Source: a virus. Taken from it: DNA of 64,000 nt. Made by a program: the position numbers and the translations under genes. The stretch spans positions 3,885-67,884 of the IMG/VR virus record IMGVR_UViG_3300042301_001121, one strand, 5' to 3'. A model generated the notes under the pieces. It was not told the origin of the DNA and made no database searches. It worked only from the letters and a program-made list of their open reading frames with translations. Positions 6,790-64,000 of this stretch are shown one piece after another (the stretch's first letter is position 1; the number at the start of each line of letters is the position of its first letter).

Positions 6790-7641
6790 ATGAAAACAGT
6801 GAATAGTCTTAGTGGGGGTAAAACTTCAAGTTACATAGCGGTTAATTATCCAGCTGATTATAATATCTTTGCCTTGGTAAGAACTGATGATAAGAAGTGT
6901 ATGTTTCCTGATGCTAAGGTAAGACAGATAGTATCTGATAGGATAGGCAAAGAGTTCATTGGCACGTTAGAGATGGATGAGATTATTTATACTATGTTAG
7001 ATCTTGAGCAATATATTGGCAAGGAGATAATATGGTTAAGCGATAAGACTTTTGAAGAGATTATTAATACTGGAAAAAGAATGGCTAATGGTAAAAATTA
7101 TTTACCTAATCAAATGACAAGATATTGCACTACTGATATGAAGGTTAAGCCTATTGCTCAATGGTGTTATGATAACACTGAGTTACCTGTAGAGATGAGA
7201 ATAGGATTTAGGGCTAATGAATTGAGTAGGGCTAATAAAATGATTGAAAGAGCTATTGATGGTGTAGAAAACTTTAAGTTCAAGGTAGGAGAAAAGAATG
7301 GTAGGAATAAGTGGAAGGAGTTGCCTTATAGAAAGGCTGTATTCCCTTTGATAAACAATCCTACATTTAAAGATACTATTGAAGAGTATTGGAAGGGTAG
7401 GCCTGTTAGATTTGCTTATAAGAATAATTGTGTTGGGTGCTTTCATAGAAGTGAATTGTTTTTAAAGCATATAAGCGAGAAAGCTCCTAATAAATTTGAT
7501 TGGTTTATTAATCAAGAGAAAGAGAATGAGTGTACATTTAAGAGTGGTATAACTTACGAAAGAATAAAGAAACATAGATTACAATTGGATTTGTTTGATG
7601 ATGACTTTGGGGATTGTGATTCTGGTCACTGTGGATTATAA
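6790..7641 (+). CDS. PAPS reductase-like (adenine nucleotide alpha-hydrolase) protein
   Basis: PP-loop SLSGGKTS, RYCT, IGFRANE, NNCVGCF, terminal CDSGHCGL. Confidence 0.75.
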   Translation: MKTVNSLSGGKTSSYIAVNYPADYNIFALVRTDDKKCMFPDAKVRQIVSDRIGKEFIGTLEMDEIIYTMLDLEQYIGKEIIWLSDKTFEEIINTGKRMANGKNYLPNQMTRYCTTDMKVKPIAQWCYDNTELPVEMRIGFRANELSRANKMIERAIDGVENFKFKVGEKNGRNKWKELPYRKAVFPLINNPTFKDTIEEYWKGRPVRFAYKNNCVGCFHRSELFLKHISEKAPNKFDWFINQEKENECTFKSGITYERIKKHRLQLDLFDDDFGDCDSGHCGL

Positions 7642-7658: not shown

Positions 7659-7862
7659 ATGAGTAAGCAAACAGCAGTAGAATGGTTAGGACATGAAATA
7701 AATAAAATATACACAGAACTTCCCGATCAATTATTTTATGATATAGCATTGTTATTACAACAAGCAAAAGAAATGGAGAAGGAGCAAATTAATGATGCAC
7801 ATTATGAGGGTAGTGAAAATTACAGGAGACAATATTACAACGAAACCTTTAAATCACAATAG
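7659..7862 (+). CDS. hypothetical protein, TAVEWL...YYNETFKS type, paralogue of 61364..61567
   Basis: Shared N- and C-terminal motifs; ends inside the 23-bp repeat. Confidence 0.75.
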   Translation: MSKQTAVEWLGHEINKIYTELPDQLFYDIALLLQQAKEMEKEQINDAHYEGSENYRRQYYNETFKSQ

Positions 7863-7866
7863 AATG
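7844..7866 (+). repeat. isolated copy of the 23-bp gene-junction repeat, 1 mismatch
   Basis: AACCTTTAAATCAcAATAGAATG. Confidence 0.85.
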
Positions 7867-8434: not shown

Positions 8435-8743
8435 ATGAGAGGATTTACTAAGAATGGTGTTAACCTAGATGTATGTGCTTACTGTAAGTGTCCTATTGAT
8501 GAATACAGCAGAACTTTAGATCACCTTTATCCTAAAAGCAGAGGAGGTAAGTTAAGTAATGATAATAAGATGCCTTCCTGTGGAGACTGTAATAAGTTGA
8601 AGGGGAGTATGGATATAGAGGAGTTTAGTAGGGCCTTGAATGGTCTTATCTTCTATGAGCATGTTAAGCATAAAGAAAGTATAGCTTATCTCAAGAAGGT
8701 TAAGTTAAATGTAGAATCAATAATTAATAATAGAAAGAAATGA
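8435..8743 (+). CDS. HNH endonuclease
   Basis: CAYC...TLDHLYPKSRGG...N...SCGDCNKLKG. Confidence 0.9.
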   Translation: MRGFTKNGVNLDVCAYCKCPIDEYSRTLDHLYPKSRGGKLSNDNKMPSCGDCNKLKGSMDIEEFSRALNGLIFYEHVKHKESIAYLKKVKLNVESIINNRKK

Positions 8744-12909: not shown

Positions 12910-12937
12910 GTCGCAAATATTTACTAAATTTGCGACA
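12909..12937 (+). promoter_or_regulatory. terminase promoter (TAAATTTG, 12925-12932) within a perfect 10-bp inverted repeat
   Basis: TGTCGCAAAT-9nt-ATTTGCGACA; ATG 4 nt after the box. Confidence 0.6.
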
Positions 12938-14991
12938 TGAGTAAAAGAAATAAAGAGGTACTCGAAATTCGCACAGAAGAATGGAAACCTTCACATGCTG
13001 AATTTGATTATCCACAATCATTTGTTAATTGGATAGATTCAATTAATAGCGGATGGCAGAATAAGATTTATCACGAGCCATTTGAAATCTACTGTAGGCA
13101 AGCAGACCTATGGCTTCAAGATTATTCCGACATACTAGATTACGACACAGAAGATGACCAGATAGAGTGGCTTCTACGAGAGATACAACGATGTAAGGAT
13201 AACACCTTATACTTCTGTAATAAGTACGGATATATCAAAGAAGATAGGGCTGAGAATGGTATGCTTTCATATCAAGCCTGGGATGCTCAGAAAGTATTAC
13301 TATTCTTATTCGACTGTGGTTATTCTCTTATGATTGGTAAGGCCCGACAGATTGGTTTTACTACTACCATGTGTCTAGCAGGAATGAAACGTGTAAACTT
13401 CAATAAATCATACTTCATTAAGTTTGTTACTCACTCTAAAGATAAGGGTGTGGAGATATTTAGGGATAAGGTTAAGTGGACATACACTAAACTACCTGAT
13501 GTAATAGCTCAAGAGGTTAAGAACTGGACTGACCAGGTGATGTCATTCGATAAGAAAGGAGACAAGAAAGGTAGAGAAGATGGTGGTGCATCACGTTTCC
13601 AGGTAGATACTCCAGCTGTAGATGCTATCAATGGTGGTTCTCCATCAGCTGTATTCATTGATGAGATTGGTTTATTTGAGATATTTGGTGAGATGATGCG
13701 TGAGGGTAGGCCTGCCTTATTTAAGTATAACCCAGACTCTGGTAAGATGACTATGCAGCAACAGTTCCTAGCATGGGGTACAGGTGGAGAGATGGATAGA
13801 GGGGGTTCTGTATTCGAGTCTGAATTTAAGATGTGTCTAAAACAATGGAAAGAGAAAAACTATGAATATGGTATTATACCTCTATTCTTTAATGCTTACG
13901 CAAGGCGAGGTGTTAATGATGCTCACATTAATAATGAGAGAAAGGCTTATTTGGCACTAGAAGGAACGAAGAAAGGGGAGATTGCTAAGGTTCAGTTCCA
14001 TCAGCATTATCCTATCACTATTGATGACATGTTCTTACGTAAATCACGTACTTTAGTACCTATTCATACCTGTAATCAGCGTTTAAATGAGATTTATGGA
14101 CATGATAAACCACTAGACTATGGTTATTTTGAGCCTATAATGGATATGACACGCCCTACGCCAGATTTGATTACTGAATATAAGATTGTAGGAGCTAAAT
14201 GGGTGTCTACAGGGTCTAGGGAAGATGTATCTACCTCAGCTGTAGTGATTCATCATCCAGAGCCAGGGGAGAAATGGAAGAATAGGTGGTATCAAGGTAC
14301 TGACCCCATCAACTCAGAGACAGGACACTCCATGATGTGTAGTGCTATATGGGATTCGCTTACTAACTCTGTGTCATCTGTGGTATTCCATAGGGATAGA
14401 AAGTTCAAACAGACGTATCTACAGGTGTTATTACAGAGTTTATACTACGATCAGATAGCAAGAGGTGGTGTTAAGGAGCTTGTGGAGAATAACATCGGAG
14501 ATATGCATGTGGATTTCCAGGAAATACATGGATTTAAGAGTAAGTTTACTGCTAACGCACAGTTGCCAGAGTATTTTCAGATGCATGGAGGTAAATGGTT
14601 TGGTATATCGAATAAGGCTAACACAGCACCACGTATTATAGCTAAGTTAGAGGAGCTTTTAGAGGCGTATATGTACAATATTGATATACCATGGTTCTGG
14701 GAGCAGCTAAAGACGTTTGTAGAGAAAGATTTAAAGAGTCAGAATAGTCATAGACAGACAAGGTATCAGGCAGCTGACCCTAGGTATGATTATGATGACA
14801 GCATCTTCGCTATAACATTTGCTTATATCAATAGTATAGCTCACGCTAGGTATGAGCCAGAGAATGTAAAAACTGAAGGTGGAGTAGCTAATGTAGAAAT
14901 ACGTTATATTCAGAATAAAGAGACGAATTATAGAATGAAGAAAGCAAGAGTTGATAAATCAACAGGAAAGGTATTAAAAATATTAGATTAA
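12937..14991 (+). CDS. terL: terminase large subunit
   Basis: Walker A GKARQIGFTT, Walker B VFIDEIG, coupling motif GTGG, nuclease GTDP and YDDSIFA. Confidence 0.9.
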   Translation: MSKRNKEVLEIRTEEWKPSHAEFDYPQSFVNWIDSINSGWQNKIYHEPFEIYCRQADLWLQDYSDILDYDTEDDQIEWLLREIQRCKDNTLYFCNKYGYIKEDRAENGMLSYQAWDAQKVLLFLFDCGYSLMIGKARQIGFTTTMCLAGMKRVNFNKSYFIKFVTHSKDKGVEIFRDKVKWTYTKLPDVIAQEVKNWTDQVMSFDKKGDKKGREDGGASRFQVDTPAVDAINGGSPSAVFIDEIGLFEIFGEMMREGRPALFKYNPDSGKMTMQQQFLAWGTGGEMDRGGSVFESEFKMCLKQWKEKNYEYGIIPLFFNAYARRGVNDAHINNERKAYLALEGTKKGEIAKVQFHQHYPITIDDMFLRKSRTLVPIHTCNQRLNEIYGHDKPLDYGYFEPIMDMTRPTPDLITEYKIVGAKWVSTGSREDVSTSAVVIHHPEPGEKWKNRWYQGTDPINSETGHSMMCSAIWDSLTNSVSSVVFHRDRKFKQTYLQVLLQSLYYDQIARGGVKELVENNIGDMHVDFQEIHGFKSKFTANAQLPEYFQMHGGKWFGISNKANTAPRIIAKLEELLEAYMYNIDIPWFWEQLKTFVEKDLKSQNSHRQTRYQAADPRYDYDDSIFAITFAYINSIAHARYEPENVKTEGGVANVEIRYIQNKETNYRMKKARVDKSTGKVLKILD

Positions 14992-18909: not shown

Positions 18910-19476
18910 ATGGCACAAAAAGAAGCTGAAATTATACTTTTTGGTTTAGAGTCTGGAGATGATTTAAGAATAGAATATCCAGAACTAGCTCAGATAGATG
19001 AGTTTAAAAACCTTAAAGCAAAAGAAGTAAGACTCTGCTGGTTATTAGGAAACAGAACAAGTCCTTTATACAAGTTGAGCGATAAGAGAGAGAGATTGAA
19101 TAGAGCATTAGAGATTGTTTATGGAAAGAGTTATATCCAACAGAAACAATTAAAGGCTTTAGTAGATGGAGATATACCTGTAGAGATTAAAGAAGCTATA
19201 AAGAAGATGGAAGAGTTTAATCCAGAGTATAGACTTAGAGCAAAGTTGTTAAGTGAGTATATGTTTGAAACTCTTAATGAAATGGTTGTAGTAGGTTCTA
19301 ATGAATTAGCTACAATGGAAGTAGATGAGAAGAAGAAATATACTGACTTACTAGTTAAGATACATGAAGAGCTACCAGATATGGTTAAACGATTAGAGAC
19401 TTCTTATGGAGTTAAGATTAAAGATAGAAAGACGAAGAAAGAGATCCTTGTTAAAATAAATGATGTACTACGATGA
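18910..19476 (+). CDS. hypothetical protein upstream of portal (possible small terminase)
   Basis: 188 aa, helical; position only. Confidence 0.4.
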   Translation: MAQKEAEIILFGLESGDDLRIEYPELAQIDEFKNLKAKEVRLCWLLGNRTSPLYKLSDKRERLNRALEIVYGKSYIQQKQLKALVDGDIPVEIKEAIKKMEEFNPEYRLRAKLLSEYMFETLNEMVVVGSNELATMEVDEKKKYTDLLVKIHEELPDMVKRLETSYGVKIKDRKTKKEILVKINDVLR

Positions 19477-21707
19477 GTTACATGTTCAGCCAAAATAGAG
19501 TAAGACCAAATAAGCTTACCAGAGTAAAAGATAAAACATATCACAGAGACTATGCTAAGTATGTATTATCTTCAATGAGTAATTTCCTTTATAGACAATT
19601 CATAAACAAATGTATTGTTAACTGGTCTTTCTTTAGAGGTCAAGATGGCCAATGGATATTTGACGAGGATGTAGAAGCTTTCTTCTTAGATGAGTCTGGA
19701 GACATCAGAAACAGATTGAAGTGGACCAAGAACGTTATAAAGCCAATGGTACAACAATACATTGGTAACGCTATTCGTTTAGGATTCGATGCTAAAGCTA
19801 CATGTATCTCTGATTTTGTGATAAACAAAAGAGAAGAAGAGATTAAGAAATTACGTGTATTACAGAAGATAGCAGATGATTTTCCATTCTTTAAAGATAT
19901 TATACAAGAGAATGCTCCTATCACAGATGATGCTGTAACGACAGAAGAGCTGTTCTACAACACTTTCGTAGAGGAATATGAACAAGACATCAACAACCTC
20001 ATCGAATACATCGCTACAGAGGTTAATATTGATGAATTAAAAGTACAGATTACTCGTAACCTTGCTATTTGTGGTTTAGGTATCTACAAAGGATATGAGC
20101 AGAATGATAACTACATGGCTAAATCTGTTAATCCATTATTCTTTATGTGGGATATGTCAGCTACTAAGCCAGACTTATCAGATGCTGAACACATGGGAGA
20201 GTGGTATTATTTAGATGCTTCAAGTATATACGAGACATACGAACACTTAACTCAAGAGGAGAGATTACTTATTGAGGAGTATGGTAAGAATAATCGTTCT
20301 AACATCATGCATAAGATTGTTAATGGTATCTATATGCAGCCAGGTGGAAAGATTCCTGTATATGAAGTATATTGGAAAGATGTAGAAAGAAAAGAATATG
20401 GATGGGTAATGGATGATTTTGGTTATCCTCAATACGTAATGATTAACGATCCAGAATCTAACTACACAGATAAAGATTTAATTGAGCCACAAACAGAGAA
20501 GCATAAAGAAGAATTAGGAAAGAAGAAAAAGCATACCATATACGTAGATGTCCTTCGTTACGCTATAATGATTCCTGCTGAGGAGTTAGGTAGTGCTGAT
20601 GGAGATATTCTATTAGAGCATGGTATATTGCCTTATCAAGAAAAGAATTTATATGACCCATCTAATGTTAAAATGCCTTATAAGTGTTACACATGGGTAT
20701 ATGATCGTGGAGAGGTACTTACGCCTCTTGATGATGTTATAGACCCACAAAGATTCTTAAACAGAACATTGTCTGTAGTAGAGTCTCAAATGTCAAACAT
20801 GAGGGGTACAGGTACTGTTATATCTAAATCTGCTGTAGATGACAGAGATGGAGAAGCAGACGTAGTAAGAAATATTAACGCATCTAAGCCAATCTTCGTA
20901 GATACGGATAGAGTAGGTTCAGTACAGAATGCTATTAGCACTTATGGTACAAACATAGGTCAAGGTACACTACAGATGTTCCAGGCTGTTAGCGTTATCC
21001 AACAGTCTATTCAAGATGTTACAGGAGTGAACGAGGCTATGACAGGTACTCAAGGTGGTGGAGATATGTTAGTAGGTGTAGTAGAAGCTCAAATACAAAG
21101 AGGTTCATTAGTACAAGAACCTTTCTATTGGGCCTTAACATCTATCTTAAAGCAAGCATACGAACACATGGCTACAGTAGGTAAAGCTGTTTATTATGAT
21201 AATCCTCGTAAACTTGCTATGATGGTAGGAGATAAGGGCTTACAGAATATAACACTTACAGAAGGTCATTTGTTACAGGACTACAGAATATTTATCAAGC
21301 GTTCTGAATCTGCTGAGGCTGGAGTAAATGCAGGTAATCAATTACTATTTACTTTACTACAAGCTGGTTTAATAGACCAAGTAATCTTCTCTAATCTATT
21401 CAATAGAGCTAGCCCAGACATTATCGCTAGAGAGTTGAGAAATTATAACAGATTAAAAATGCAAGCTCAGAACATGGCTGTTGATGCTCAGCAAAAAGGT
21501 ATTGAGCAAGGCTTACAGCAATCTGCTAATATGCAGGATCAAATGATGCAGCAACAACAAGCAGCTCAACAGCAGCAAGTTGGACAACAACAGATGGCTC
21601 ATCAGCAGGAAATGGAGAAGATAGCATTGAAAGAAGGAGCTAAAAGTGAAAGAGAAGCGGCTAAATTATCTGTAGATTTACAAGAAAAAATGCCACCTCA
21701 AGAGTAG
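19473..21707 (+). CDS. portal protein
   Basis: 744 aa, TGVNEAMTG motif, Q-rich C-terminal coiled coil, position before scaffold and capsid. Confidence 0.8.
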   Translation: MSYMFSQNRVRPNKLTRVKDKTYHRDYAKYVLSSMSNFLYRQFINKCIVNWSFFRGQDGQWIFDEDVEAFFLDESGDIRNRLKWTKNVIKPMVQQYIGNAIRLGFDAKATCISDFVINKREEEIKKLRVLQKIADDFPFFKDIIQENAPITDDAVTTEELFYNTFVEEYEQDINNLIEYIATEVNIDELKVQITRNLAICGLGIYKGYEQNDNYMAKSVNPLFFMWDMSATKPDLSDAEHMGEWYYLDASSIYETYEHLTQEERLLIEEYGKNNRSNIMHKIVNGIYMQPGGKIPVYEVYWKDVERKEYGWVMDDFGYPQYVMINDPESNYTDKDLIEPQTEKHKEELGKKKKHTIYVDVLRYAIMIPAEELGSADGDILLEHGILPYQEKNLYDPSNVKMPYKCYTWVYDRGEVLTPLDDVIDPQRFLNRTLSVVESQMSNMRGTGTVISKSAVDDRDGEADVVRNINASKPIFVDTDRVGSVQNAISTYGTNIGQGTLQMFQAVSVIQQSIQDVTGVNEAMTGTQGGGDMLVGVVEAQIQRGSLVQEPFYWALTSILKQAYEHMATVGKAVYYDNPRKLAMMVGDKGLQNITLTEGHLLQDYRIFIKRSESAEAGVNAGNQLLFTLLQAGLIDQVIFSNLFNRASPDIIARELRNYNRLKMQAQNMAVDAQQKGIEQGLQQSANMQDQMMQQQQAAQQQQVGQQQMAHQQEMEKIALKEGAKSEREAAKLSVDLQEKMPPQE

Positions 21708-55068: not shown

Positions 55069-56451
55069 TTAAAAATCAAAATCGTTAGTATTATCAAATC
55101 TTTCTATGGAGGTTTGTACTGTGTTATCATCGTAATCACCAGTATCTCCTATGTTTTGCCACGCTGGTATCTCAGAGTCAAACTCTAGCTCTATATCAGC
55201 TAACTCACCATCTCTATGCTTAGCTATGTAAACAAATCCCTGCTTAGCTATTGGACTAGTATCTCTCTCGTTTCCTGGTAGGTAATAAGAAGGTCTGAAT
55301 AGGAAAGAAACTATATCAGCATCTTGCTCTATATCTCCAGACTCTCTAAGGTCACTTAGTATTGGTCTCTTATCAGTTCTTAGCTCTACTGCTCTAGATA
55401 ACTGTGCAAGGGCTACAATAGGTATTTTAAGCTCATTTGCCATGTCTTTTAGCTTTCTTGATACATCACCTACCTCATTAGTTCTATTCTGCGCTCCTGG
55501 GCTTGTAATCTTCTGAATGTAATCAACTACGACATAGTCCAATCCCTCAGCGTATTTCATTTTGTGAACCATGGTTATTACATCTGTGATAGTGAATGAT
55601 CCTCCTACGATACGAACACCAGATGCGGAGATTCTTCTCTTGGATCTTTCAAACCTACCACGTTCATTAGGCATAAGCCGACCTTTCTTAATCGAATAAC
55701 CTTGAACACCAGAGTCAACAGCTATAAGTCGTTTCATCACTTGTACCTCATCCATCTCACACGATATGAATAAGCCTTTCTTGTTGTTACGTATGGATGC
55801 TGCTTTCATAATACTAAGTCCGAACTGTGTCTTACCAGCACCAGGTCTAGCTGCTACGATGATTAGGTTAGTAGGTTGCATACCAGATGTTATCTCATCG
55901 AACTTATGGAATCCTGTACGAATACCAGATACACCATTGCTATCGGCAGCTATCTTCATCTTCTCCTCAAGTTCATTGAGTAGTGTCTCGTTGTCGTAGC
56001 TTTTCTTGTTTAGTAATGATTTGTATTTGTTATTTACTAAATGGTCTTGTAATAGATTTATTACCACGTTAGGGTCGTAATCATCTCTGTTAGACATGAG
56101 TGATAGCTTACCAGCTAGTTCAACATGCTCACTTCGTATTGCTTCTGCTACTAGGCTGTCAATACAGCTCTCGTACTCTTTAAGGGCGGCAGGTATAGAT
56201 ATAATTTTACTAATCTCTAGTATAGCTTCCTTGTTGTAGATAGACTTACTCTTCTTTATCGAATCATTTATCGTTGTGATGTTTATAGGCTCGTGGTTAA
56301 GATATAGGTCAGTTATGGCTTCAAATATTAGTTTTGTCGTTGGATCAATAAACATAGAAGCATCAACCTTATCCATGATGTCGTGAACGCCACCTGGGTT
56401 ACTGAGTACTTCCTTAATGATTAATTGCTCTGACCTTGTTCTTAAATTCAT
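55069..56451 (-). CDS. dnaB: replicative DNA helicase, DnaB family
   Basis: AARPGAGKT, SCEM, VDYIQ, LAQLSR, DLRESGDIEQDAD, IAKHRDG. Confidence 0.95.
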   Translation of the reverse strand: MNLRTRSEQLIIKEVLSNPGGVHDIMDKVDASMFIDPTTKLIFEAITDLYLNHEPINITTINDSIKKSKSIYNKEAILEISKIISIPAALKEYESCIDSLVAEAIRSEHVELAGKLSLMSNRDDYDPNVVINLLQDHLVNNKYKSLLNKKSYDNETLLNELEEKMKIAADSNGVSGIRTGFHKFDEITSGMQPTNLIIVAARPGAGKTQFGLSIMKAASIRNNKKGLFISCEMDEVQVMKRLIAVDSGVQGYSIKKGRLMPNERGRFERSKRRISASGVRIVGGSFTITDVITMVHKMKYAEGLDYVVVDYIQKITSPGAQNRTNEVGDVSRKLKDMANELKIPIVALAQLSRAVELRTDKRPILSDLRESGDIEQDADIVSFLFRPSYYLPGNERDTSPIAKQGFVYIAKHRDGELADIELEFDSEIPAWQNIGDTGDYDDNTVQTSIERFDNTNDFDF

Positions 56452-58289: not shown

Positions 58290-59210
58290 TTAATTCTTTA
58301 AAGTTAATGCATGGTTATTACAGTGATTCTTAAATGCTTCAAGGTTATCTGGGTCTGCTGACTTTAACTGTTCTAGTATAATCATCGCCCATTGTTTAAG
58401 CTCAGCTTTAGTAGTGTGTTTCTTTATATCAACAAGTGCTTGTTCATAAAGAGATAGAGATAAAGACTCATTAAGTTCTTTGTCAATAGCTTCTCTCATC
58501 ATATCTGCTGTCATCTTAGCTGTAGGTTTCTTACCTATTACAGTGATATACTCTTGAGTTACTGCTTCTAATTCTACCTCAGCATCTGTCTTTTTCTTTA
58601 GTACTCCTTGAGGATTAGCATCAGGATCTATAACGGATTGTGCTGTTTGTTGCACTTTTGGCTGTGTTTCTTCCTTGATGTACTCACCCCATTGGAATCG
58701 TAGCTTACCATTAGTATCTTTACATGCTAGGTAATTAACCTTACCATCAGTAAACTGAGAGTGCCATTTCCAATCTCTAAGTTTTAATCCCCACTTTTGT
58801 CTACCCTTACCTGATACTAATTCATATTCAGTATCTAACACTAGAGGAATAGATATGATTGGATAGTCATAAAGCTCACGACCTATACCCCAATTGAAGC
58901 ACGCACGTTTGAATGAGTCAGATGATTCACCTTTGGTAGCTTCTGTCATAGATTCCGTACCTACATCAGACTTCCATACCCATTCACCATTCTCTTCATT
59001 ATAGATACCAACGTGGCAGAATAGTTTACCATCAATAAGCTCATGTTTACGTTGCCAGTTAAGTGGGCCGACTGCTTGATCTAATCTCTGCATATCTACA
59101 CGAGCTGACTTATACGCTAGGATTGTAGCGTAGCCTTTAGCATTAATTGATTGTACTCTGAAGTCAATGTCCTCAATGGTCAAAGGTCTTGATAATTCTT
59201 TTAGATTCAT
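58290..59210 (-). CDS. Rad52/Sak-like single-strand annealing recombinase
   Basis: LAYKSAR...RLD..VG..NWQ...WVWKSDVG...KGESSDSFKRA...WGIGRELY. Confidence 0.85.
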   Translation of the reverse strand: MNLKELSRPLTIEDIDFRVQSINAKGYATILAYKSARVDMQRLDQAVGPLNWQRKHELIDGKLFCHVGIYNEENGEWVWKSDVGTESMTEATKGESSDSFKRACFNWGIGRELYDYPIISIPLVLDTEYELVSGKGRQKWGLKLRDWKWHSQFTDGKVNYLACKDTNGKLRFQWGEYIKEETQPKVQQTAQSVIDPDANPQGVLKKKTDAEVELEAVTQEYITVIGKKPTAKMTADMMREAIDKELNESLSLSLYEQALVDIKKHTTKAELKQWAMIILEQLKSADPDNLEAFKNHCNNHALTLKN

Positions 59211-59220
59211 ACTTTATTTT

Positions 59221-59508
59221 TTATTTAGTTAATACAAATGATAAGTTCCAATTAGGAATAGATGAGTCAATGAATGCTCGTAGTATCTCTTCCTTTACTT
59301 TAGCTGATGGATAATGTTTGAATACTGACTTAGCAAGTTTTAACGCTTCTCTATCTTCTTGAGACTTTTTAAACACATCCTTGTTAAGTTCTAATCTTCT
59401 TTTGTTTACTTCTGATTGAACAATAGATTTGTTCTGAGACATTGATCCATCCGTACTTGTTTTTGGTACAAGCTTTACCATTACTCTTTGTGCGAAATGT
59501 ATTTTCAT
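59221..59508 (-). CDS. hypothetical protein (ATG supplied by repeat)
   Basis: 95 aa. Confidence 0.65.
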   Translation of the reverse strand: MKIHFAQRVMVKLVPKTSTDGSMSQNKSIVQSEVNKRRLELNKDVFKKSQEDREALKLAKSVFKHYPSAKVKEEILRAFIDSSIPNWNLSFVLTK

Positions 59509-59519
59509 TCTATTCTGAT

Positions 59520-59867
59520 TTAAAGGTTAATTATTTTATCTACTGAAAGTAAATCACATATATCTTCAATATGATTTTCTAAATCCATACCCACTTGTTC
59601 ATAATCACAAAATCTATGATAACAATCTGCATTTTCCCAATGTTGAAAACATTCTTTTTCTTCTCCATTGTCAATAAATAAACCGCATCCTGTACATTTA
59701 TTACATACACTTTCTTCAGGAAATTCATCATCAGTTAAATGTCTATTTTGCCATCCTTGAGAATAAACATTGTATATTTTTTCCAAAACAGATTTTGTTT
59801 TCTCTATAAATTCTTTTTGATTCATTTTGCGTGGTTCTTGCGGTTCAATTTTAAATAAATCTTCCAT
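59520..59867 (-). CDS. Cys-containing hypothetical cassette gene
   Basis: Start and stop both inside repeats; CNKCTGCG. Confidence 0.7.
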   Translation of the reverse strand: MEDLFKIEPQEPRKMNQKEFIEKTKSVLEKIYNVYSQGWQNRHLTDDEFPEESVCNKCTGCGLFIDNGEEKECFQHWENADCYHRFCDYEQVGMDLENHIEDICDLLSVDKIINL

Positions 59868-59885
59868 TCTATTCTGATTTAAAGG

Positions 59886-60107
59886 TTAAATACTTCGTAA
59901 TTCAATAGGGTGCAATTCGTGTTTAAATGGCTTCAATCTACGTTTAGCTACTTCAATCTGTTTTCTGTAATAATATGGACTTTGACCACGCCTTAAAAGG
60001 TATCCAATCATTGCTTGTGATTGGTAAATGTGATACAAAAGTTTATCGATTTCACTTGGGTTTTTACCAAGTTTAAAGTTTACTCTTAATTCTCTTTCTG
60101 TTTTCAT
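59886..60107 (-). CDS. hypothetical basic protein
   Basis: Stop overlaps the start of the repeat. Confidence 0.65.
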   Translation of the reverse strand: MKTERELRVNFKLGKNPSEIDKLLYHIYQSQAMIGYLLRRGQSPYYYRKQIEVAKRRLKPFKHELHPIELRSI

Positions 60108-60343
60108 TCTATTTGTTTATTTGATGTTTTAATTCGTTCCGAATTATAGTGTAATAATTTATTTACTTCATTACTTAAAAAAACCATAATTTCCATTACT
60201 TGATTGGCGTCTAGCCAAATTGATTCATTATTTACTTCAATTTCAAGTTCACTATCATCATCAAATGATGTTAAACATATCTTTGCTTCTCTTTTGTTTA
60301 ATTTTAATTCACTCATATTCTTATTTTTAAAATAAATCATCAC
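60104..60343 (-). CDS. hypothetical protein
   Basis: 79-aa ORF; true start may be the internal MSEL. Confidence 0.55.
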   Translation of the reverse strand: MMIYFKNKNMSELKLNKREAKICLTSFDDDSELEIEVNNESIWLDANQVMEIMVFLSNEVNKLLHYNSERIKTSNKQIE

Positions 60344-60638
60344 TTGATACTTCTACCTTTTGTTTTTCTCTCCTTGATACTCCTATACTTGATTGATTAC
60401 GTAGTGAGTATCTTGATATTATAATATTAATATCTAGGTTTAAGAACTCAGCTAGGAATACGAATACATAAGCATCATTAGGATATGCTCCTCTCACTAG
60501 GTTATACACATTCATGTATGAGTGCCAGTTACTTCCTGGCACATCTTGTTTAATCAATTCATCTTGTACATGCTGAACACGATAGCGTTGCTCATCTAAT
60601 AGATCTTTGATTCCGATAAACTTGTTTGATAAACTCAT
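60327..60638 (-). CDS. putative HTH-like protein
   Basis: 103 aa, YNLVRG.YP...LAEFLN. Confidence 0.45.
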   Translation of the reverse strand: MSLSNKFIGIKDLLDEQRYRVQHVQDELIKQDVPGSNWHSYMNVYNLVRGAYPNDAYVFVFLAEFLNLDINIIISRYSLRNQSSIGVSRREKQKVEVSSDDLF

Positions 60639-60689
60639 TGACTCTGCTAAATTAAAAGTTATTAATCACAAATCCAAACTTATTAACAT

Positions 60690-60995
60690 TTATTTACTAA
60701 ATGTTTGTTTGAATTTTTCTTCTGTACATACTATAGTTCCATCATTAACTACCACATTATCTTTAAATAATATTTCAACCTTTGTGTTATATCTATCTTT
60801 CATCTCTATTATTATTTCATCATCATTATTTTCTACGCTCATGATGGAGGATAAGGTAGGTACATCATCTACTAGTTCAATGTAGTAAGGGAAGTCATAT
60901 ACTGCCTTGAGTAATATTTTAAACTTCTCCATGTCGTCAATTTTAAAGATGGCTTGAAGTCTACCATCTGCTCTAAATACCATTGCTGTTTTCAT
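60690..60995 (-). CDS. hypothetical protein (ATG supplied by repeat)
   Basis: 101 aa. Confidence 0.65.
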   Translation of the reverse strand: MKTAMVFRADGRLQAIFKIDDMEKFKILLKAVYDFPYYIELVDDVPTLSSIMSVENNDDEIIIEMKDRYNTKVEILFKDNVVVNDGTIVCTEEKFKQTFSK

Positions 60996-61006
60996 TCTAT
61001 TCTGAT

Positions 61007-61186
61007 TTAAAGGTCAAACCAATACATTCCAAAAAATATCCTCATACATTGTCTATGAAACCATTTTGGTTTGTAAGATAAATTCATTTGTGTATAATAA
61101 GTTGAAGCAGTTCCAAATCTATAACCACCAACAGGAAGTGGAGGTCTTTCTGCAATTATAAATGTCGCTGTTGTTGTGTGTTCCAT
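61007..61186 (-). CDS. hypothetical cassette gene (59 aa, below cutoff)
   Basis: Manual translation MEHTTTATFIIAERPPLPVGGYRFGTASTYYTQMNLSYKPKWFHRQCMRIFFGMYWFDL*; fills the repeat-to-repeat interval exactly. Confidence 0.75.
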   Translation of the reverse strand: MEHTTTATFIIAERPPLPVGGYRFGTASTYYTQMNLSYKPKWFHRQCMRIFFGMYWFDL

Positions 61187-61188
61187 TT

Positions 61189-61362
61189 CTATTCTGATTT
61201 AAAGGTTTGTTTTTTAGTTTTGGCTAAATAGTAAAGCTCTGCGTATTCTTGCATTGCTATCAACGCTTGTGACCTATCAATGATACCATCATAATCAGTA
61301 TACTTGTTTAGTATTTCTTCTTTTGAACCAAGTAATATTATTTCTTTTTGTTCCTCATCCAT
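61189..61362 (-). CDS. hypothetical cassette gene (start MDEEQK, ends TFKSE)
   Basis: Bounded by repeats; the ORF-track start at 61449 overlaps the previous gene. Confidence 0.7.
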   Translation of the reverse strand: MDEEQKEIILLGSKEEILNKYTDYDGIIDRSQALIAMQEYAELYYLAKTKKQTFKSE

Positions 61363-61363
61363 T

Positions 61364-61567
61364 CTATTCTGATTTAAAGGTTTCGTTGTAGTATTGTTCT
61401 GGTTGATAACATTGAGAACCATAATCATTGCTCCCTTGATTATAAGCATCCATTATCTGCTCTTCAAACATTTTTTCAGCTTGTTCAATAATTTTTAATT
61501 TTACTTCATAATTTGCTAATTCATATTTATTTAGCTTTTTAACCAACCATTCTACTGCTGTTTTCAT
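61364..61567 (-). CDS. hypothetical cassette gene, TAVEWL...YYNETFKSE type
   Basis: Bounded by repeats; paralogue of 7659..7862. Confidence 0.75.
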   Translation of the reverse strand: MKTAVEWLVKKLNKYELANYEVKLKIIEQAEKMFEEQIMDAYNQGSNDYGSQCYQPEQYYNETFKSE

Positions 61568-61568
61568 T

Positions 61569-61928
61569 CTATTCTGATTTAAAGGTTAATTCTTCTCCTG
61601 TCAGTGCAAAGTATAAGTTTTGTAGTTGGTGAACATATTTAATAGATTCCTCTAAAATAGCCCAAGAATTAAAATAAACTCTACCTTTTTTATGACGCTC
61701 TAATTCATTTGATACTTGTATTGTTAATTTTTCTTTGTCAAATTGGCTACTTACTTTTGACTTCTCAAACCCAAATTTTATCAACCATTCTTCTGTTAGT
61801 GGAATTGGATTATAGTTTGGTTTTTCCATTGCTACTATCAACAATCTTATTTCATGATAAGAAATAGTGCCAATTTCTCCATTTGGTAAATAAAATTTAT
61901 TACCTATTCTCAATTCACTTGCTTTCAT
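61569..61928 (-). CDS. hypothetical cassette gene (ELRIGN...PIPLTEEWL...VHQLQNLYFALTG)
   Basis: Bounded by repeats; ends TFKSE. Confidence 0.75.
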   Translation of the reverse strand: MKASELRIGNKFYLPNGEIGTISYHEIRLLIVAMEKPNYNPIPLTEEWLIKFGFEKSKVSSQFDKEKLTIQVSNELERHKKGRVYFNSWAILEESIKYVHQLQNLYFALTGEELTFKSE

Positions 61929-61949
61929 TCTATTCTGATTTAAAGGTTA

Positions 61950-62597
61950 TTACTTCTTTTTAAATTGTTCAAACCATTTGTCAAAGTTTTTTGTAAATTC
62001 CCTTGGATTACCCGTAGCTGGAACTTGCCATCTAACTTCTTCAGCTATTTTTCTAACTTCTTCCTCACTATACATTCTTTCAGCTTGCCATTTAGCACCT
62101 GCTATCCAATTATCTGTTTTGCATAAATTAGGGTCTGCAAGATTAGCAGCAGCTTCTTCAAGTGTTTCTTGTTTAGGTTCTTCTTGTGGAATGATGATTT
62201 TGTAGCATTGTGATTTATTTAGTTCACTCCACCTAAACTTTTTATAATTAAAGTTAACCACAACACTCTCACAACTTGGATTCTTAATAAACCATTCTAA
62301 AAATTCATCATCAATAGCTTGTACACCATCTGTAATTAGGTCTTGGTCTGTTGTTAGGATGATTTTTTTATAGTATGAATCTAAACCCTTAATACCATCA
62401 TACTGTACTATATTTTTTGTAGAAAGATTTAAACCAAAATCTCCTTCTTCAATAAATTCATCAGAAGTGATGTAGATGTGTTGGTTCTTACATAGTCCTT
62501 GAGATTTAGGCATCAATCCATTAGGATATAACATTAATTTACCTGTTATATGTAATCTACTTGGTTTTTCTGTTGGTAATAAATGTAAATTTTTCAT
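61950..62597 (-). CDS. hypothetical protein
   Basis: 215 aa, KIILTTD and EPKQETLEEAA motifs; stop 1 nt before the repeat. Confidence 0.75.
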   Translation of the reverse strand: MKNLHLLPTEKPSRLHITGKLMLYPNGLMPKSQGLCKNQHIYITSDEFIEEGDFGLNLSTKNIVQYDGIKGLDSYYKKIILTTDQDLITDGVQAIDDEFLEWFIKNPSCESVVVNFNYKKFRWSELNKSQCYKIIIPQEEPKQETLEEAAANLADPNLCKTDNWIAGAKWQAERMYSEEEVRKIAEEVRWQVPATGNPREFTKNFDKWFEQFKKK

Positions 62598-62606
62598 ATT
62601 ACTTTT

Positions 62607-63008
62607 TTAAAAATTAATTTTCCAAGATCCTAGTAATTCAGGATGAAAATGAGCTACAAATAACCATACAAGAATAGTCATAGATATTATACCATCTATC
62701 TTCTTAAATAGTATCAAACTTTCCCAGTGCTTATTTTTCTTAAAATATTTGGCCACAGGAGCTTGTAAAAGAGACAATACAAAAATAGCTAAGTATGCAT
62801 ACCATAGCCCACTAATTGCCATTCCTAAGATTAACCATACAAGATAGATTGTTGAAAAACAACCAGTTACCAATCTTATTGATTCTTTATCATCTTTATC
62901 CTTTGGTAATATATACAGAGCTGTTATAAATGCTCTTGTTTTAACAAACACCCACATTTCATACATAAAGGCTGCACCTATCATAAGTGCTAATAACACA
63001 TCTTTCAT
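62607..63008 (-). CDS. membrane protein
   Basis: About four hydrophobic segments. Confidence 0.65.
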   Translation of the reverse strand: MKDVLLALMIGAAFMYEMWVFVKTRAFITALYILPKDKDDKESIRLVTGCFSTIYLVWLILGMAISGLWYAYLAIFVLSLLQAPVAKYFKKNKHWESLILFKKIDGIISMTILVWLFVAHFHPELLGSWKINF

Positions 63009-63020
63009 AATTAATAGCTT

Positions 63021-63548
63021 TTAATTATTAAATTTATATTTTATAGTTCTTTTGATTAGATCCACACAGTAATCTACATCATGTAATGTAAGTTTTCCTG
63101 TATTAGATTCTACTTCACTACAGTGATGAATAGTAAGATAAATACATTTTTCCAATTCTTTAAACATATCCTCTTGATCCTTGTAAGCTTCATCTAACTT
63201 AGTTTCTAAGTCTGCAATAACCTCATCCTTAACTTTAAGCCCTGCCTGTGCTTTTTCTAAGTTAAGTTCCAAATCACTTTTCATCATTACAAAATCATCA
63301 TTCTTAACCTTCTTAGGCCTTCCTGAATTTTTTACTTTATTGTTAACTGCCATTTTTACTTGTTTTTTTTGTTCTAAATAATCAATAATAAAACCAATAG
63401 CAACTAGTATATTCATACCACAAGATGCTATTATTTCATGAATGTCCTCATATATAGTGGACATCAAATGTACATGACCAACCATCCAAAATGGTACAGA
63501 TAAGTTTTGGCTTATCCATACCACTAGGTACTTAATAAAGTGAAGCAT
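63021..63548 (-). CDS. hypothetical protein, possibly two genes fused at an A8 run
   Basis: Hydrophobic N-part plus soluble coiled-coil part starting MAVNNK. Confidence 0.5.
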   Translation of the reverse strand: MLHFIKYLVVWISQNLSVPFWMVGHVHLMSTIYEDIHEIIASCGMNILVAIGFIIDYLEQKKQVKMAVNNKVKNSGRPKKVKNDDFVMMKSDLELNLEKAQAGLKVKDEVIADLETKLDEAYKDQEDMFKELEKCIYLTIHHCSEVESNTGKLTLHDVDYCVDLIKRTIKYKFNN

Positions 63549-63793
63549 TAAGGTATACAATAAGTATCACCAAGTCCTAAGCTATTGTACAGCTCCTCAC
63601 TAACACTTACCCATCTAGACTCACGAATACAAGGATCATAAAATAGTATAGTATAGGAAGTTCCTATGACATTACCAGATGAGCTAAGCATATGATCAAT
63701 ATCTTTATCCTTTACATCAGCACATTTGCACTCTTTTTTTTTACAGCTTAAAAGGACTAAACTTAACAGTAAGACACTAATTATCTTTTTCAT
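63548..63793 (-). CDS. putative lipoprotein
   Basis: MKKIISVLLLSLVLLSC lipobox. Confidence 0.7.
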   Translation of the reverse strand: MKKIISVLLLSLVLLSCKKKECKCADVKDKDIDHMLSSSGNVIGTSYTILFYDPCIRESRWVSVSEELYNSLGLGDTYCIP

Positions 63794-64000
63794 GTTTGCT
63801 TGTTTTAATTATTTTAGCATAAAGTCATAAGCAGCTTTGCTACCACTCATGTTAAACTTATAAGTTTCTGTTGTACAATAACTCTCATTTATCCTAATTT
63901 TTACTGCAGATGCTGCTTTAAAATCTGCAAGCATCTCAGGTCTCAATTCCAATGACCAGGTTAGGAAAACTATGTTATTTTTCTCAGACTTATCACAAAC

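What the first reader, a model, noticed from the sequence alone, without database searches (positions are those of the whole stretch)
59506..61948. Repeat-delimited gene-cassette array: a 23-bp junction element that supplies stop and start codons
Seen: AACCTTTAAATCAGAATAGAATG (minus strand) occurs 7 times: 5 perfect, 1 with a mismatch, 1 with a 1-nt insertion. Every copy lies exactly between two genes, and its last 3 nt are the ATG of the next gene. Five of the six intervals (176-361 bp) hold exactly one unrelated ORF with no other intergenic DNA. Upstream genes end in different ways: through the repeat as ...TFKSE-TAG (3 genes), at the internal TAA as ...N/D-L* (2 genes), or at its 5' edge (2 genes). 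The third frame is open and in phase with the ATG. Because identity persists across different frames, protein-level selection cannot explain it. Inference: the element is a combined recombination site and translation-coupling module that lets single-gene cassettes be gained, lost or reordered in an expressible form. This resembles an integron array, but with no attC hairpins and no integrase in the window.
Basis: partly seen in the sequence, partly recalled or inferred. Interest (0 to 1): 0.88.

Follow-up and report, generated by a model that had tools for sequence, protein, structure and literature searches.

The report
Shared stop-start joint swapping phage genes
A 23-letter sequence that ends one small gene and starts the next is repeated through the early region of this lake phage and recurs letter for letter in many other phages, and it marks the exact points where whole small genes have been gained, lost and swapped.

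Summary
The 23-mer occurs 7 times on the minus strand at 59506-61948: 5 exact, 1 with a mismatch, 1 with a 1-nt insertion. An eighth copy lies at 7844-7866 and two more in the record outside the window. The window is a tailed phage of lake Bacteroidota.

The 21-nt core is exact in at least 120 IMG/VR stretches. It lies after 65 upstream and before 93 downstream protein families, in all three upstream frames.

Homology between contigs at 95% identity or more breaks at the element in 91 of 120 cases, against 51 of 241 at neighbouring gene starts. Two junction-precise single-cassette indels, of 279 and 175 nt, were aligned.

No integrase, hairpin, promoter, terminator or Rfam family was found.

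Best reading: a portable stop/start adaptor, probably derived from the 3' end of one abundant small gene family. It serves as a short homology patch for cassette exchange by ordinary recombination. A role in translation is plausible but not shown.

It is a new variant of a known kind, closest to T4 PeSLs and mycobacteriophage SAS. This scan has noted the same and similar joints before on other DNA. Three paper searches found no description.

The parts
61926..61948 (-). Junction element copy 1 (exact). The upstream gene 61950..62597 ends with TAA TAA at the 5' edge. The element's ATG starts gene 61569..61928.
   Evidence: The same junction stands in L024 and L051 and in a Logan contig of run X22 covering 61570-61978 with 0 differences.
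61565..61587 (-). Copy 2 (exact). The upstream protein ends ...LYFALTGEEL-TFKSE*. The ATG starts gene 61364..61567 (TAVEWL family).
   Evidence: Five relatives share the upstream flank at 91-100% but have unrelated downstream DNA. The Cellulophaga phage phi19:1 homologue ends GEELTTK* with no element.
61360..61382 (-). Copy 3 (exact). The upstream protein ends ...EQYYNE-TFKSE*. The ATG starts the 57-aa cassette gene 61189..61362.
   Evidence: L070 lacks this 175-nt cassette precisely.
61184..61207 (-). Copy 4, 24 nt with one extra A before TG. The upstream protein ends ...KQ-TFKSE*. The ATG starts gene 61007..61186.
   Evidence: Identity with L123 is 100% up to this copy and unrelated after it.
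60993..61015 (-). Copy 5 (G at position 1). The upstream protein ends ...WFDL* at the internal TAA. The ATG starts gene 60690..60995.
59865..59887 (-). Copy 6 (exact). The upstream gene 59886..60107 ends with a TAA that overlaps the first two A of the element. The ATG starts gene 59520..59867.
   Evidence: L097 shares only the downstream flank, at 96%.
59506..59528 (-). Copy 7 (exact). The upstream protein ends ...IINL* at the internal TAA. The ATG starts gene 59221..59508.
   Evidence: Collinear homology with the close relative G006 resumes at 59514, inside this copy. The G006 orthologue has no element.
60105..60113 (-). Remnant that keeps the last 9 nt of the element (AATAGAATG), in front of gene 59886..60107.
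   Evidence: read. Whether it is a decayed copy or chance was not tested.
7844..7866 (+). Distant copy with 1 mismatch, at the 3' end of a second TAVEWL-family gene (7659..7862, ends ETFKSQ*). It supplies the ATG of the next gene.
59221..62597 (-). Row of small cassette genes of unknown function joined by the element: 215, 119, 67, 57, 59, 101, 103, about 70, 73, 115 and 95 aa.
   Evidence: ORFs. Of the 10 scanned, none has a Pfam family above its cut-off, and only 61569..61928 matches a PHROG (phrog_10066, unknown function). The ~70-aa ORF between 60104 and 60319 was not scanned.
58290..59210 (-). Erf-like single-strand annealing protein, one gene downstream of the last copy. It is a candidate catalyst of short-homology exchange in this phage.
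   Evidence: phrog_1097, E 1.2e-26. A homologue is present in only 1 of 123 element-bearing loci, so this is not a general partner.

Best explanation
The 23-nt element is a portable gene joint. Read from the upstream gene it gives a stop in two frames: TAA at positions 7-9 and TAG at positions 17-19. A gene arriving in the third frame needs only a TAA that overlaps the first two A. Read towards the downstream gene it gives an ATG behind an unstructured leader, A-rich in part, of the kind Bacteroidota ribosomes use.

Because many co-occurring lake phages carry the same letters, including phages that share no detectable portal, any two copies form a 23-nt homology patch. Crossovers in that patch move, insert, delete or replace whole small genes, and every product stays correctly terminated and started. 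The exchange is most likely ordinary homology-directed recombination: a phage annealing protein such as the neighbouring Erf-like one, or host RecA. It is not a site-specific recombinase.

The element probably began as the 3' end of the very abundant TAVEWL...YYNETFKSE small gene family together with the next gene's start. Exchange then carried it onto unrelated genes, leaving TFKSE tails on them. Its exactness may be kept partly by the exchange itself: copies that recombine are re-made from the shared sequence, and mutated copies drop out of the exchange.

Shown: the anatomy, the spread, the frames, the breakpoints and the indels. Inferred: the enzyme, the origin and what selection acts on.
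For: 1. Real and non-random: 8 copies in the window against 0.01 expected; 9 in the record against 0 for the reversed control.

2. Widespread and exact. In 1.07 Mb of those loci the 23-mer has 170 exact copies, then 23, 27 and 12 copies at 1, 2 and 3 mismatches; the reversed control gave 0. Positions 5-18 are almost invariant, and the commonest variant turns TAG-A-ATG into TAA-G-ATG, so stop and start are kept.

3. Frame-independent. Of 180 exact copies, 128 are read as TFKSE*, 36 as ..NL*, and 16 sit behind a stop at the 5' edge.

4. Serves unrelated genes. 198 element-preceded ORFs fall into 93 families. 175 upstream genes fall into 65 families.

5. Mosaic breakpoint. HSPs of at least 95% identity and 150 nt end at element junctions in 91 of 120 cases. 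At other small-gene starts within 2.5 kb on the same strand the figure is 51 of 241. By junction the counts are 53 of 65 against 35 of 174 (first version). Two occurrences of the same upstream family share a downstream family in 74 of 2547 pairs with the element and 1836 of 4701 without it.

6. Precise cassette indels with near-identical flanks: 279 nt between L118 and L061; 175 nt between L123/window and L070.

7. Six of the 7 window junctions have a relative with one flank 91-100% identical and the other unrelated.

8. Close relative G006 (portal 93% aa identity) is collinear over 47,560 of 67,884 nt. It has different and reordered cassettes at the array.

9. One strand per genome, co-directional with the genes, in all 10 other records checked.

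10. Crosses lineages. Four records rated 97-100% complete that carry the element have no detectable homologue of the window's portal, while G006 matched as a positive control.

11. Start context. The window's other 56 genes have 59-68% A at -13 to -10 and 62% A at -3, and only 2 of 56 have an SD-like 4-mer. The element has A at -13, -12, -11 and -3. A at -3 is a positive determinant in Flavobacterium johnsoniae (PMC6847099, abstract read).

12. Origin. The TAVEWL family has 104 members in 123 loci, and 81 end ETFKSE. Divergent members end TFKQQDK, TFNK or TFEK, so ETFK looks native to the family.

13. Scar on an unrelated protein. The window protein ends GEEL-TFKSE*, while its Cellulophaga phage homologue ends GEELTTK*.

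14. Logan contigs of independent lake runs end, with overlaps of about 30 nt, at four of the copies. The record's own first 127 nt repeat exactly at C1:65687-65813 and the two paths diverge inside the element. Both fit co-existing variants that branch at the joint.
Against: - No experiment or read-level joint shows exchange happening. Among the 15 of 103 joints that one search printed, none runs from one copy to another, and only contigs, not raw reads, were available.

- 23 nt is short for efficient homologous recombination. That statement is recalled knowledge and was not tested here.

- The Erf-like protein is found in only 1 of 123 element-bearing loci, so no common catalyst is identified. 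The loci are short, about 9 kb on average.

- The loci were collected by exact match to the element. The excess of exact copies and the choice of neighbourhoods are therefore biased. HSP pairs are not independent, so the Fisher p-values overstate significance.

- Some breaks are not copy-to-copy. The element at C1:334-356 truncates a gene that is full length and element-free in G006. That needs an illegitimate event.

- Ten of the 13 unaligned segments between G000 and G006 hold no element, so it is only one of several routes to mosaicism.

- Near-invariance of the core in 170 copies is more than a homology patch strictly needs. It would also fit a sequence-specific binding factor.
Confidence: 0.66

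Rival explanations
1. The element is first of all an expression signal. It would be a start-associated sequence on the mRNA, or on the DNA, recognised by a host or phage factor such as a translational activator or repressor, a re-initiation signal or a processing site. Exchange at it would then be a by-product of shared letters.
For: The element sits at a fixed distance from the ATG in every copy. It is present on one strand only per genome. Core positions 5-18 are nearly invariant, including third codon positions of the TFKSE frame. It is unstructured, with z-scores from -0.25 to +1.67, and it has A at -13 to -11 and at -3, like the phage's other starts. In 128 of 180 copies the stop lies 1 nt before the ATG (TAG-A-ATG). 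Mycobacteriophage SAS are read this way (PMC3203893, passages read).
Against: The orthologue of gene 59221..59508 in the close relative has an ordinary A-rich leader and no element. Of 48 multi-member families, 34 have members both with and without it. Bacterial genomes do not use it: the 21-mer is exact in only 3 MAG contigs among 185,579 species genomes. No co-occurring factor was identified. No usable RNA data were available. This reading alone does not predict the threefold to fourfold excess of breakpoints. It is not exclusive of the best explanation.
Confidence: 0.2
2. The element is the target of a dedicated enzyme that makes exchange site-specific. This would be an unrecognised recombinase, or a nicking or homing endonuclease such as one of the HNH genes in the record. 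The array would then be an integron-like system with a new kind of site.
For: Identity across lineages is very sharp. Cassette indels are precise. HNH-type genes were read by eye at about 8437-8700 and at C1:1600-1854; no family search was run on them.
Against: The own genome, rated 99% complete, has no tyrosine (PF00589) or serine (PF00239) recombinase, while the controls matched in 14 and 12 of 14 genomes. No hairpin or inverted repeat is present. The window's HNH-like protein has no homologue in 0 of 123 loci, and no replication or recombination protein of the window recurs in more than 2 of 123 loci. The junction at C1:334-356 needs no partner site.
Confidence: 0.06
3. The element is a passive relic. 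It would simply be the shared 3' end of a recently expanded multi-copy gene family, exact because the copies are young, with no role in exchange or expression.
For: Of 175 upstream genes, 70 belong to the TAVEWL family, and 81 of its 104 members end ETFKSE. Many flanks are 95-100% identical between contigs, so much of this DNA is young.
Against: Of 175 junctions, 105 have upstream genes from 64 other families. In 52 of 180 copies the element is read in another frame or lies behind the stop. Synonymous variation is common in the YYNE codons right up to the element and nearly absent inside it. The breakpoint excess holds against neighbouring junctions.
Confidence: 0.06
4. The variable junctions are artefacts of metagenome assembly, meaning chimeric joins at a repeat.
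For: The record's first 127 nt repeat exactly at C1:65687-65813. That suggests the contig runs once round a circle and then out along a variant branch. Long-range linkage of 61941-64000 to the rest of the record is therefore uncertain.
Against: The repeat is 23 nt, shorter than the word lengths that final assemblies usually use (recalled). The same junctions recur in independent contigs from many samples. Logan contigs of other runs span several window junctions with 0 differences: 59507-60444, 60985-61387 and 61570-61978.
Confidence: 0.02

Closest known systems
PeSLs (promoter-early stem-loops) of T4-type phages (Arbiol et al. 2010, PMC2839356; abstract and outline read. Comeau et al. 2014, PMC4122927; search listing only)
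   Same: Short conserved cassettes lie between small non-essential ORFan genes. Recombination between copies causes the insertions, deletions and replacements that separate close relatives. This is the closest match in how it works.
   Different: A PeSL is a sigma-70-like promoter plus a terminator hairpin in real intergenic DNA. This element has no promoter-like site, no terminator and no hairpin. It is only 23 nt long, overlaps the coding sequence of the upstream gene and contains the next gene's ATG. It also occurs in four records rated 97-100% complete that lack a detectable homologue of the window's portal. Mini-circles could not be tested.
Start-associated sequences (SAS) of cluster K mycobacteriophages (Pope et al. 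2011, PMC3203893; passages read)
   Same: Both are short asymmetric repeats in one orientation, immediately upstream of mostly ATG starts. Both lie in the non-structural half of the genome, before genes of different families. In both, some family members have the repeat and some lack it, and the upstream stop sometimes lies inside it.
   Different: SAS is 13 bp, contains the SD core AGGAG, lies 3-7 bp before the start, and is confined to one phage cluster. No role in gene exchange is stated in the passages I read. This element has no SD, includes the ATG itself, and is a demonstrated mosaic breakpoint.
Integron cassette arrays (IntI, attI, attC). Definition recalled, not read here.
   Same: A row of single promoterless genes, each bounded by a repeated site, with variable content between relatives.
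   Different: There is no tyrosine recombinase, no attC-type imperfect hairpin, and no sign of a fixed insertion point. The site is 23 nt of coding sequence plus a start.
Linker or boundary sequences proposed for lambdoid phage module exchange (Susskind and Botstein 1978; Clark et al. 2001 on HK620). Recalled; neither paper was seen here.
   Same: The idea is the same: short conserved sequences at gene boundaries guide homologous exchange of modules.
   Different: As I recall, those sequences are loosely conserved and lie within one phage group. This one is exact, frame-independent and shared by many lineages.
Halovirus HF2 intergenic repeats (PMC8707807; search listing and start of abstract only)
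   Same: Short repeats (29 and 58 bp) recur between genes of a virus genome.
   Different: According to the abstract those repeats carry promoters. No promoter-like site coincides with a copy here.

Membership tests
Integron | IntI-type tyrosine recombinase next to the array | tested here: not met
   PF00589 gave 0 matches in the own record, which is rated 99% complete. The control matched in 14 of 14 genomes. PF00239 also gave 0 matches.
Integron | attC site: imperfect inverted repeat that folds as a single-strand hairpin at the 3' end of each cassette | tested here: not met
   Seven copies with 20-nt flanks were folded as DNA. Minimum free energy was 0 to -2.2 kcal/mol and z-scores ran from -0.25 to +1.67.
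Integron | Promoterless single-gene cassettes whose content varies between relatives | tested here: met
PeSL (T4-type phages) | Strong early promoter inside the repeat | tested here: not met
   No sigma-70-like site coincides with a copy: 23 sites found against 20.2 expected. No Bacteroidota-type TTTG/TAnnTTTG match lies on the array's coding strand; that consensus is recalled.
PeSL (T4-type phages) | Stem-loop terminator inside the repeat | tested here: not met
PeSL (T4-type phages) | Copies flank small ORFan genes, and recombination between copies explains indels and replacements between close relatives | tested here: met
PeSL (T4-type phages) | Excised mini-circles formed between neighbouring copies | not testable with these tools
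   Only Logan contigs were available, not raw reads. No copy-to-copy joint was among the 15 of 103 joints printed.
Start-associated sequence (cluster K mycobacteriophages) | Asymmetric short repeat, in one orientation, directly upstream of start codons in the non-structural region | tested here: met
Start-associated sequence (cluster K mycobacteriophages) | Contains the Shine-Dalgarno core and can pair with the 16S rRNA tail | tested here: not met
   The element contains no GGAG, GAGG or AGGA. Only 2 of the window's 56 other genes have an SD-like 4-mer.
Start-associated sequence (cluster K mycobacteriophages) | Sequence homology to the 13-bp SAS consensus | tested here: not met
   The SAS consensus printed in the paper shares no stretch with the 23-mer, by inspection.

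The most novel reading that the evidence does not exclude
The joint is a community-wide exchange standard that is itself selected. It would be one fixed 23-nt plug, kept letter-perfect across phage lineages with no detectable shared portal in lake Bacteroidota, because a dedicated factor reads it. That factor could be an annealing protein or nuclease with a preference for the core, or a phage-specific translation re-initiation factor. If so, these arrays would be a recombinase-free counterpart of integrons for phage accessory genes, and similar joints with other sequences in marine, T4-like and crAss-like phages (earlier notes of this scan, not tested here) would be parallel inventions of the same device.
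Probability: 0.15. Interest if true: 0.85.

Novelty: new variant of a known kind. Interest (0 to 1): 0.62.

Why it matters
How phage genomes become mosaics with breakpoints at gene boundaries is an old question. One view holds that exchange is guided by short conserved linker sequences. The other holds that joins are random and selection then keeps the ones at gene boundaries.

This element is a clean natural case for the linker view:
- It is a defined 23-nt sequence that makes every recombinant gene properly stopped and started, whatever the reading frame.
- It is shared by unrelated phages of one habitat.
- It shows measured breakpoint enrichment and single-gene indels.

It also gives a handle for finding the fast-moving accessory genes of uncultured Bacteroidota phages, which are likely host-takeover and anti-defence genes. 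It offers a testable design for a natural gene-swapping connector. And it warns that TFKSE-type tails on small phage proteins are junction scars rather than functional motifs.

Tried and rejected
- Named phages. A 4-kb blastn query against 50,697 GenBank phage records matched only about 78 nt of one gene in Cellulophaga phages. A 34-nt query around the element gave only chance-level hits, E 1 to 4. tblastn of the TAVEWL protein found nothing. No cultured phage carries the element in that collection.

- Pfam and PHROGs on ten array proteins gave no function. The ESM Atlas returned only viral hypothetical clusters.

- Rfam found nothing at E up to 1.

- Promoter and terminator scans found nothing at the copies.

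- Reads. Only Logan contigs were served. The one RNA run (X24) covered small pieces (58903-59218, 60373-60752 and short bits), which say nothing about transcript ends at the element. No copy-to-copy deletion joint was among the 15 of 103 joints printed. A contig of X14 joins 59508 to 60327 with 16 other letters between, which is a relative whose gene 59221..59508 follows gene 60327..60638 directly without the element.

- Linking the array to the Erf-like protein as a general partner was rejected, because a homologue is present in only 1 of 123 loci.

- I asked whether element variants at positions 19-20 travel with the downstream gene. By eye, the same downstream genes occur with both variants. 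This was not quantified.

- Paper searches for the core sequence, for conserved sequences at phage gene boundaries, and for Flavobacterium phage intergenic motifs found no description of this element. Supplementary files were not opened.

- The metagenome-contig scan, structure prediction, complex prediction and the large protein searches were not used.

Full report
**What is there.** On the minus strand of 59506-61948 the sequence AACCTTTAAATCAGAATAGAATG occurs seven times. Five copies are exact, one has G at position 1 (60993-61015), and one has an extra A before the final TG (61184-61207). The window holds 8 matches at up to 3 mismatches, against 0.01 expected from shuffles (sequence read).

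Each copy ends in the ATG of the next ORF. Start-to-start distances are 361, 205, 175, 192, 1128 and 359 nt. Five of the six intervals hold exactly one small ORF.

- through the element as ...TFKSE-TAG (three genes);
- at the internal TAA as ...NL* or ...DL* (two genes);
- at a TAA on its 5' edge (two genes).

There are further copies. An eighth lies on the plus strand at 7844-7866, behind a paralogue of gene 61364..61567. The window is G000:C1:3885-67884 of a 67,884-nt virus record rated 99% complete. That record holds one more copy at C1:334-356 and a two-change variant near C1:130.

**Context.** The window is a tailed phage. It encodes a DnaB-like helicase (55069-56451), a terminase-like protein (12937-14991), a portal (19473-21707), and an Erf-like annealing protein (58290-59210) one gene downstream of the last copy.

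The array genes are small and have no known function. None has a Pfam family above its cut-off, and only 61569..61928 matches a PHROG, itself of unknown function.

The habitat is lake water: 22 DNA runs labelled lake water metagenome hold half or more of the sampled words. The likely hosts are Bacteroidota. The only three bacterial-genome contigs with the exact 21-mer are MAGs labelled Chitinophagaceae, Saccharicrinis and Bacteroidota.

The phage's other genes have the SD-less start context typical of that phylum. A makes up 59-68% of positions -13 to -10 and 62% of position -3, and only 2 of 56 genes have an SD-like 4-mer. A at -3 is reported as a positive determinant in Flavobacterium johnsoniae (PMC6847099, abstract).

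**Spread.** Contigs range from 4 to 124 kb and often carry 2-4 copies.

In the 123 fetched loci (1,066,704 nt) the 23-mer has 170 exact copies, then 23, 27, 12, 12 and 15 copies at one to five mismatches. The reversed sequence has none at up to five mismatches. Positions 5-18 (TTTAAATCAGAATA) are almost invariant. Changes cluster at positions 2-4 and 19-20. The commonest variant (21 copies) changes TAG-A-ATG to TAA-G-ATG, so both the stop and the start are kept.

These loci were collected by exact match, so the excess of exact copies is biased upward.

In 10 other records searched whole, all copies of a record lie on one strand: 3/0, 3/0, 0/1, 0/8, 0/4, 4/0, 2/0, 2/0, 0/1 and 4/0.

Only one of those ten, G006, has a detectable homologue of the window's portal, at 93% identity. 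Four records rated 97-100% complete (35 to 124 kb) have none. The element therefore crosses phage lineages.

No GenBank phage in the 50,697-record collection carries it.

**Frames and partners.** Of 180 exact copies, 128 are read as TFKSE*, 36 as ..NL* through the internal TAA, and 16 sit behind a TAA that overlaps the first two A.

The 198 ORFs of at least 35 aa that start at an element ATG fall into 93 protein families. Of the 48 families with two or more members, 34 also have members without the element. The 175 called upstream genes fall into 65 families.

One family dominates upstream, with 70 of the 175. These are small proteins that begin MKTAVEWL and end ...EQYYNETFKSE. They have 104 members in the 123 loci, and 81 end ETFKSE. 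Divergent members end TFKQQDK, TFNK or TFEK, so ETFK seems native to this family.

This suggests that the 5' two-thirds of the element began as the 3' end of this gene family.

Other proteins carry the tail as a scar. The window's 119-aa protein ends ...LYFALTGEEL-TFKSE*, while its homologue in Cellulophaga phage phi19:1 ends ...GEELTTK* with no element.

**Exchange at the element.** I compared all loci with each other by blastn. I then asked, for each gene start, whether high-identity alignments run through it or stop at it. Only HSPs of at least 95% identity and 150 nt were used.

| Junction type | HSPs that stop there | Junctions with at least one break |
|---|---|---|
| Element junctions | 91 of 120 | 53 of 65 |
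| Other small-gene starts within 2.5 kb, same strand | 51 of 241 | 35 of 174 |

A first version with cruder gene calls gave 123 of 157 against 95 of 600. The pairs are not independent, so the p-values printed overstate the case, but the effect is large.

Neighbour identity tells the same story. Two occurrences of the same upstream family have the same downstream family in 74 of 2547 pairs across an element and 1836 of 4701 pairs without one. Leaving out the TAVEWL family the figures are 12 of 132 and 1835 of 4596.

Six of the window's own seven junctions have at least one relative whose one flank is 91-100% identical over up to 90 nt while the other flank is unrelated. Two junctions have a relative alike on both sides. 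One junction had no informative partner.

Two alignments show precise single-cassette indels:
- L118 has a 279-nt gene-plus-element that L061 lacks, between flanks with two mismatches each in about 200 nt.
- L123 and the window have a 175-nt gene-plus-element that L070 lacks, between identical flanks. The window then departs from L123 exactly at the next copy.

**The close relative.** G006 aligns collinearly with 47,560 of the record's 67,884 nt at 67-97% identity, 80-93% for most blocks.

Collinear homology coming up from the replication genes stops at window 59514, inside the last copy. Upstream of that point the two genomes hold different cassettes in a different order.

For example, the MKQKF cassette lies upstream of a small regulator-like gene in G006 and downstream of its homologue in the window's record.

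Two details matter.
- The G006 orthologue of gene 59221..59508 (87% identical) has a plain A-rich leader and no element, so the element is optional for that gene.
- A gene that is full length in G006 is cut short in the window's record, after about 33 codons, by an element copy and ends ...NSIQ-LTFKSE*. G006 has no copy at that place. This join was therefore not copy-to-copy, and it shows how the element can cap a gene in any frame after an illegitimate event.

Ten of the 13 unaligned segments between the two genomes hold no element, so the element is one route to mosaicism among several.

**Population evidence.** Logan contigs of three lake DNA runs end, with overlaps of about 30 nt, at four of the copies (59503-59531, 59865-59894, 60985-61013 and about 61387). 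Other contigs span several junctions without a difference.

The record's first 127 nt are identical to C1:65687-65813, and the two paths part inside the element, one nucleotide upstream of the ATG. I read this as a circle of about 65.7 kb plus a branch from a co-existing variant. That is an inference, and it makes the long-range linkage of 61941-64000 to the rest of the record uncertain.

No copy-to-copy deletion was among the 15 of 103 joints printed, and raw reads were not available. Excision and circles therefore remain untested.

**What it is not.**
- No tyrosine or serine recombinase is present in the record.
- The element has no hairpin: minimum free energy 0 to -2.2 kcal/mol, z-scores -0.25 to +1.67.
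- It matches no Rfam family.
- No promoter-like or terminator-like site coincides with a copy.
- The Erf-like protein has a homologue in only 1 of the 123 loci. It is a candidate catalyst in this phage only.

**Reading.** The best-supported explanation is a portable stop/start adaptor that doubles as a 23-nt homology patch. Crossovers in it exchange whole small genes between co-infecting phages, and every product stays expressible.

The anatomy, the spread, the breakpoints and the indels are shown. The enzyme, the origin from the TAVEWL family and the reason for the near-invariant core are inferred.

The main rival is a start-associated expression signal read by some factor. It is not excluded and may hold at the same time. 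The fixed distance to the ATG, the single orientation and the invariant core fit it. The optional presence on orthologues and the absence from host genomes do not favour a general requirement.

**Comparison and novelty.** In how it works the element is closest to the PeSLs of T4-type phages (PMC2839356, abstract). It lacks their promoter and their terminator.

In position it resembles the SAS of cluster K mycobacteriophages (PMC3203893, passages). It lacks their SD core and their restriction to one cluster.

It is not an integron.

Searches for the core sequence, for conserved sequences at phage gene boundaries, and for Flavobacterium phage motifs found no description of it.

This scan has noted the same TFKSE joint, and similar joints with other sequences, on other genomes before. 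I did not test those notes. They neither raise nor lower my scores.

I rate it a new variant of a known kind, with interest 0.62.

Noticed in passing
G000:C1:1-127 and C1:65687-65813 (window 61803-61929): The record's first 127 nt repeat exactly inside the array, and the two copies diverge inside the element. The contig is probably a circle of about 65.7 kb plus a 2-kb branch from a co-existing variant. If so, window 61941-64000 may not be linked to the rest in one genome.
   Followed up: partly
window 60327-60689 and G000:C1:~480-830 (L008): Two diverged copies of a 103-aa gene (MSLSNKFIGIKDLL / MPLKTKNKFIGIKDLL, 67% DNA identity to the G006 copy). Each sits behind the only real intergenic spacers of the region. 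The C1 copy's spacer contains a TAaaTTTG box like the Bacteroidota -7 motif (recalled). These may be an early regulator and its promoter, which would divide the array into transcription units.
   Followed up: partly
window 61364-61567, 7659-7862, and 104 ORFs in loci L010-L132: A very abundant family of proteins of about 65-75 aa, with constant ends (MKTAVEWL..., ...EQYYNETFKSE) and variable middles. It has no Pfam, PHROG or named-phage match. It is the commonest gene next to the element and its likely source.
   Followed up: partly
L009 (Cellulophaga phage phi19:1) 1140-3170: This cultured phage has its own repeated start-associated motif, AACTAAAACAATTACAA(A/G)ATG, with shorter forms such as CTAAACAACATG, in front of several small early genes.
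   Followed up: no
window 8437-8700 and G000:C1:1600-1854: Two HNH-type endonuclease-like ORFs (Cys/His motifs read by eye) lie near the small-gene regions. No family search was run on them.
   Followed up: no
window 6790-7641: A PAPS-reductase-like gene (phrog_424, E 9e-20) lies directly upstream of the plus-strand TAVEWL paralogue and the eighth element copy.
   Followed up: no
window 60373-60752: Contigs of the one RNA-labelled run (X24) cover the spacer and the regulator-like gene at 96-100% identity. This may be expression or carried-over DNA.
   Followed up: no
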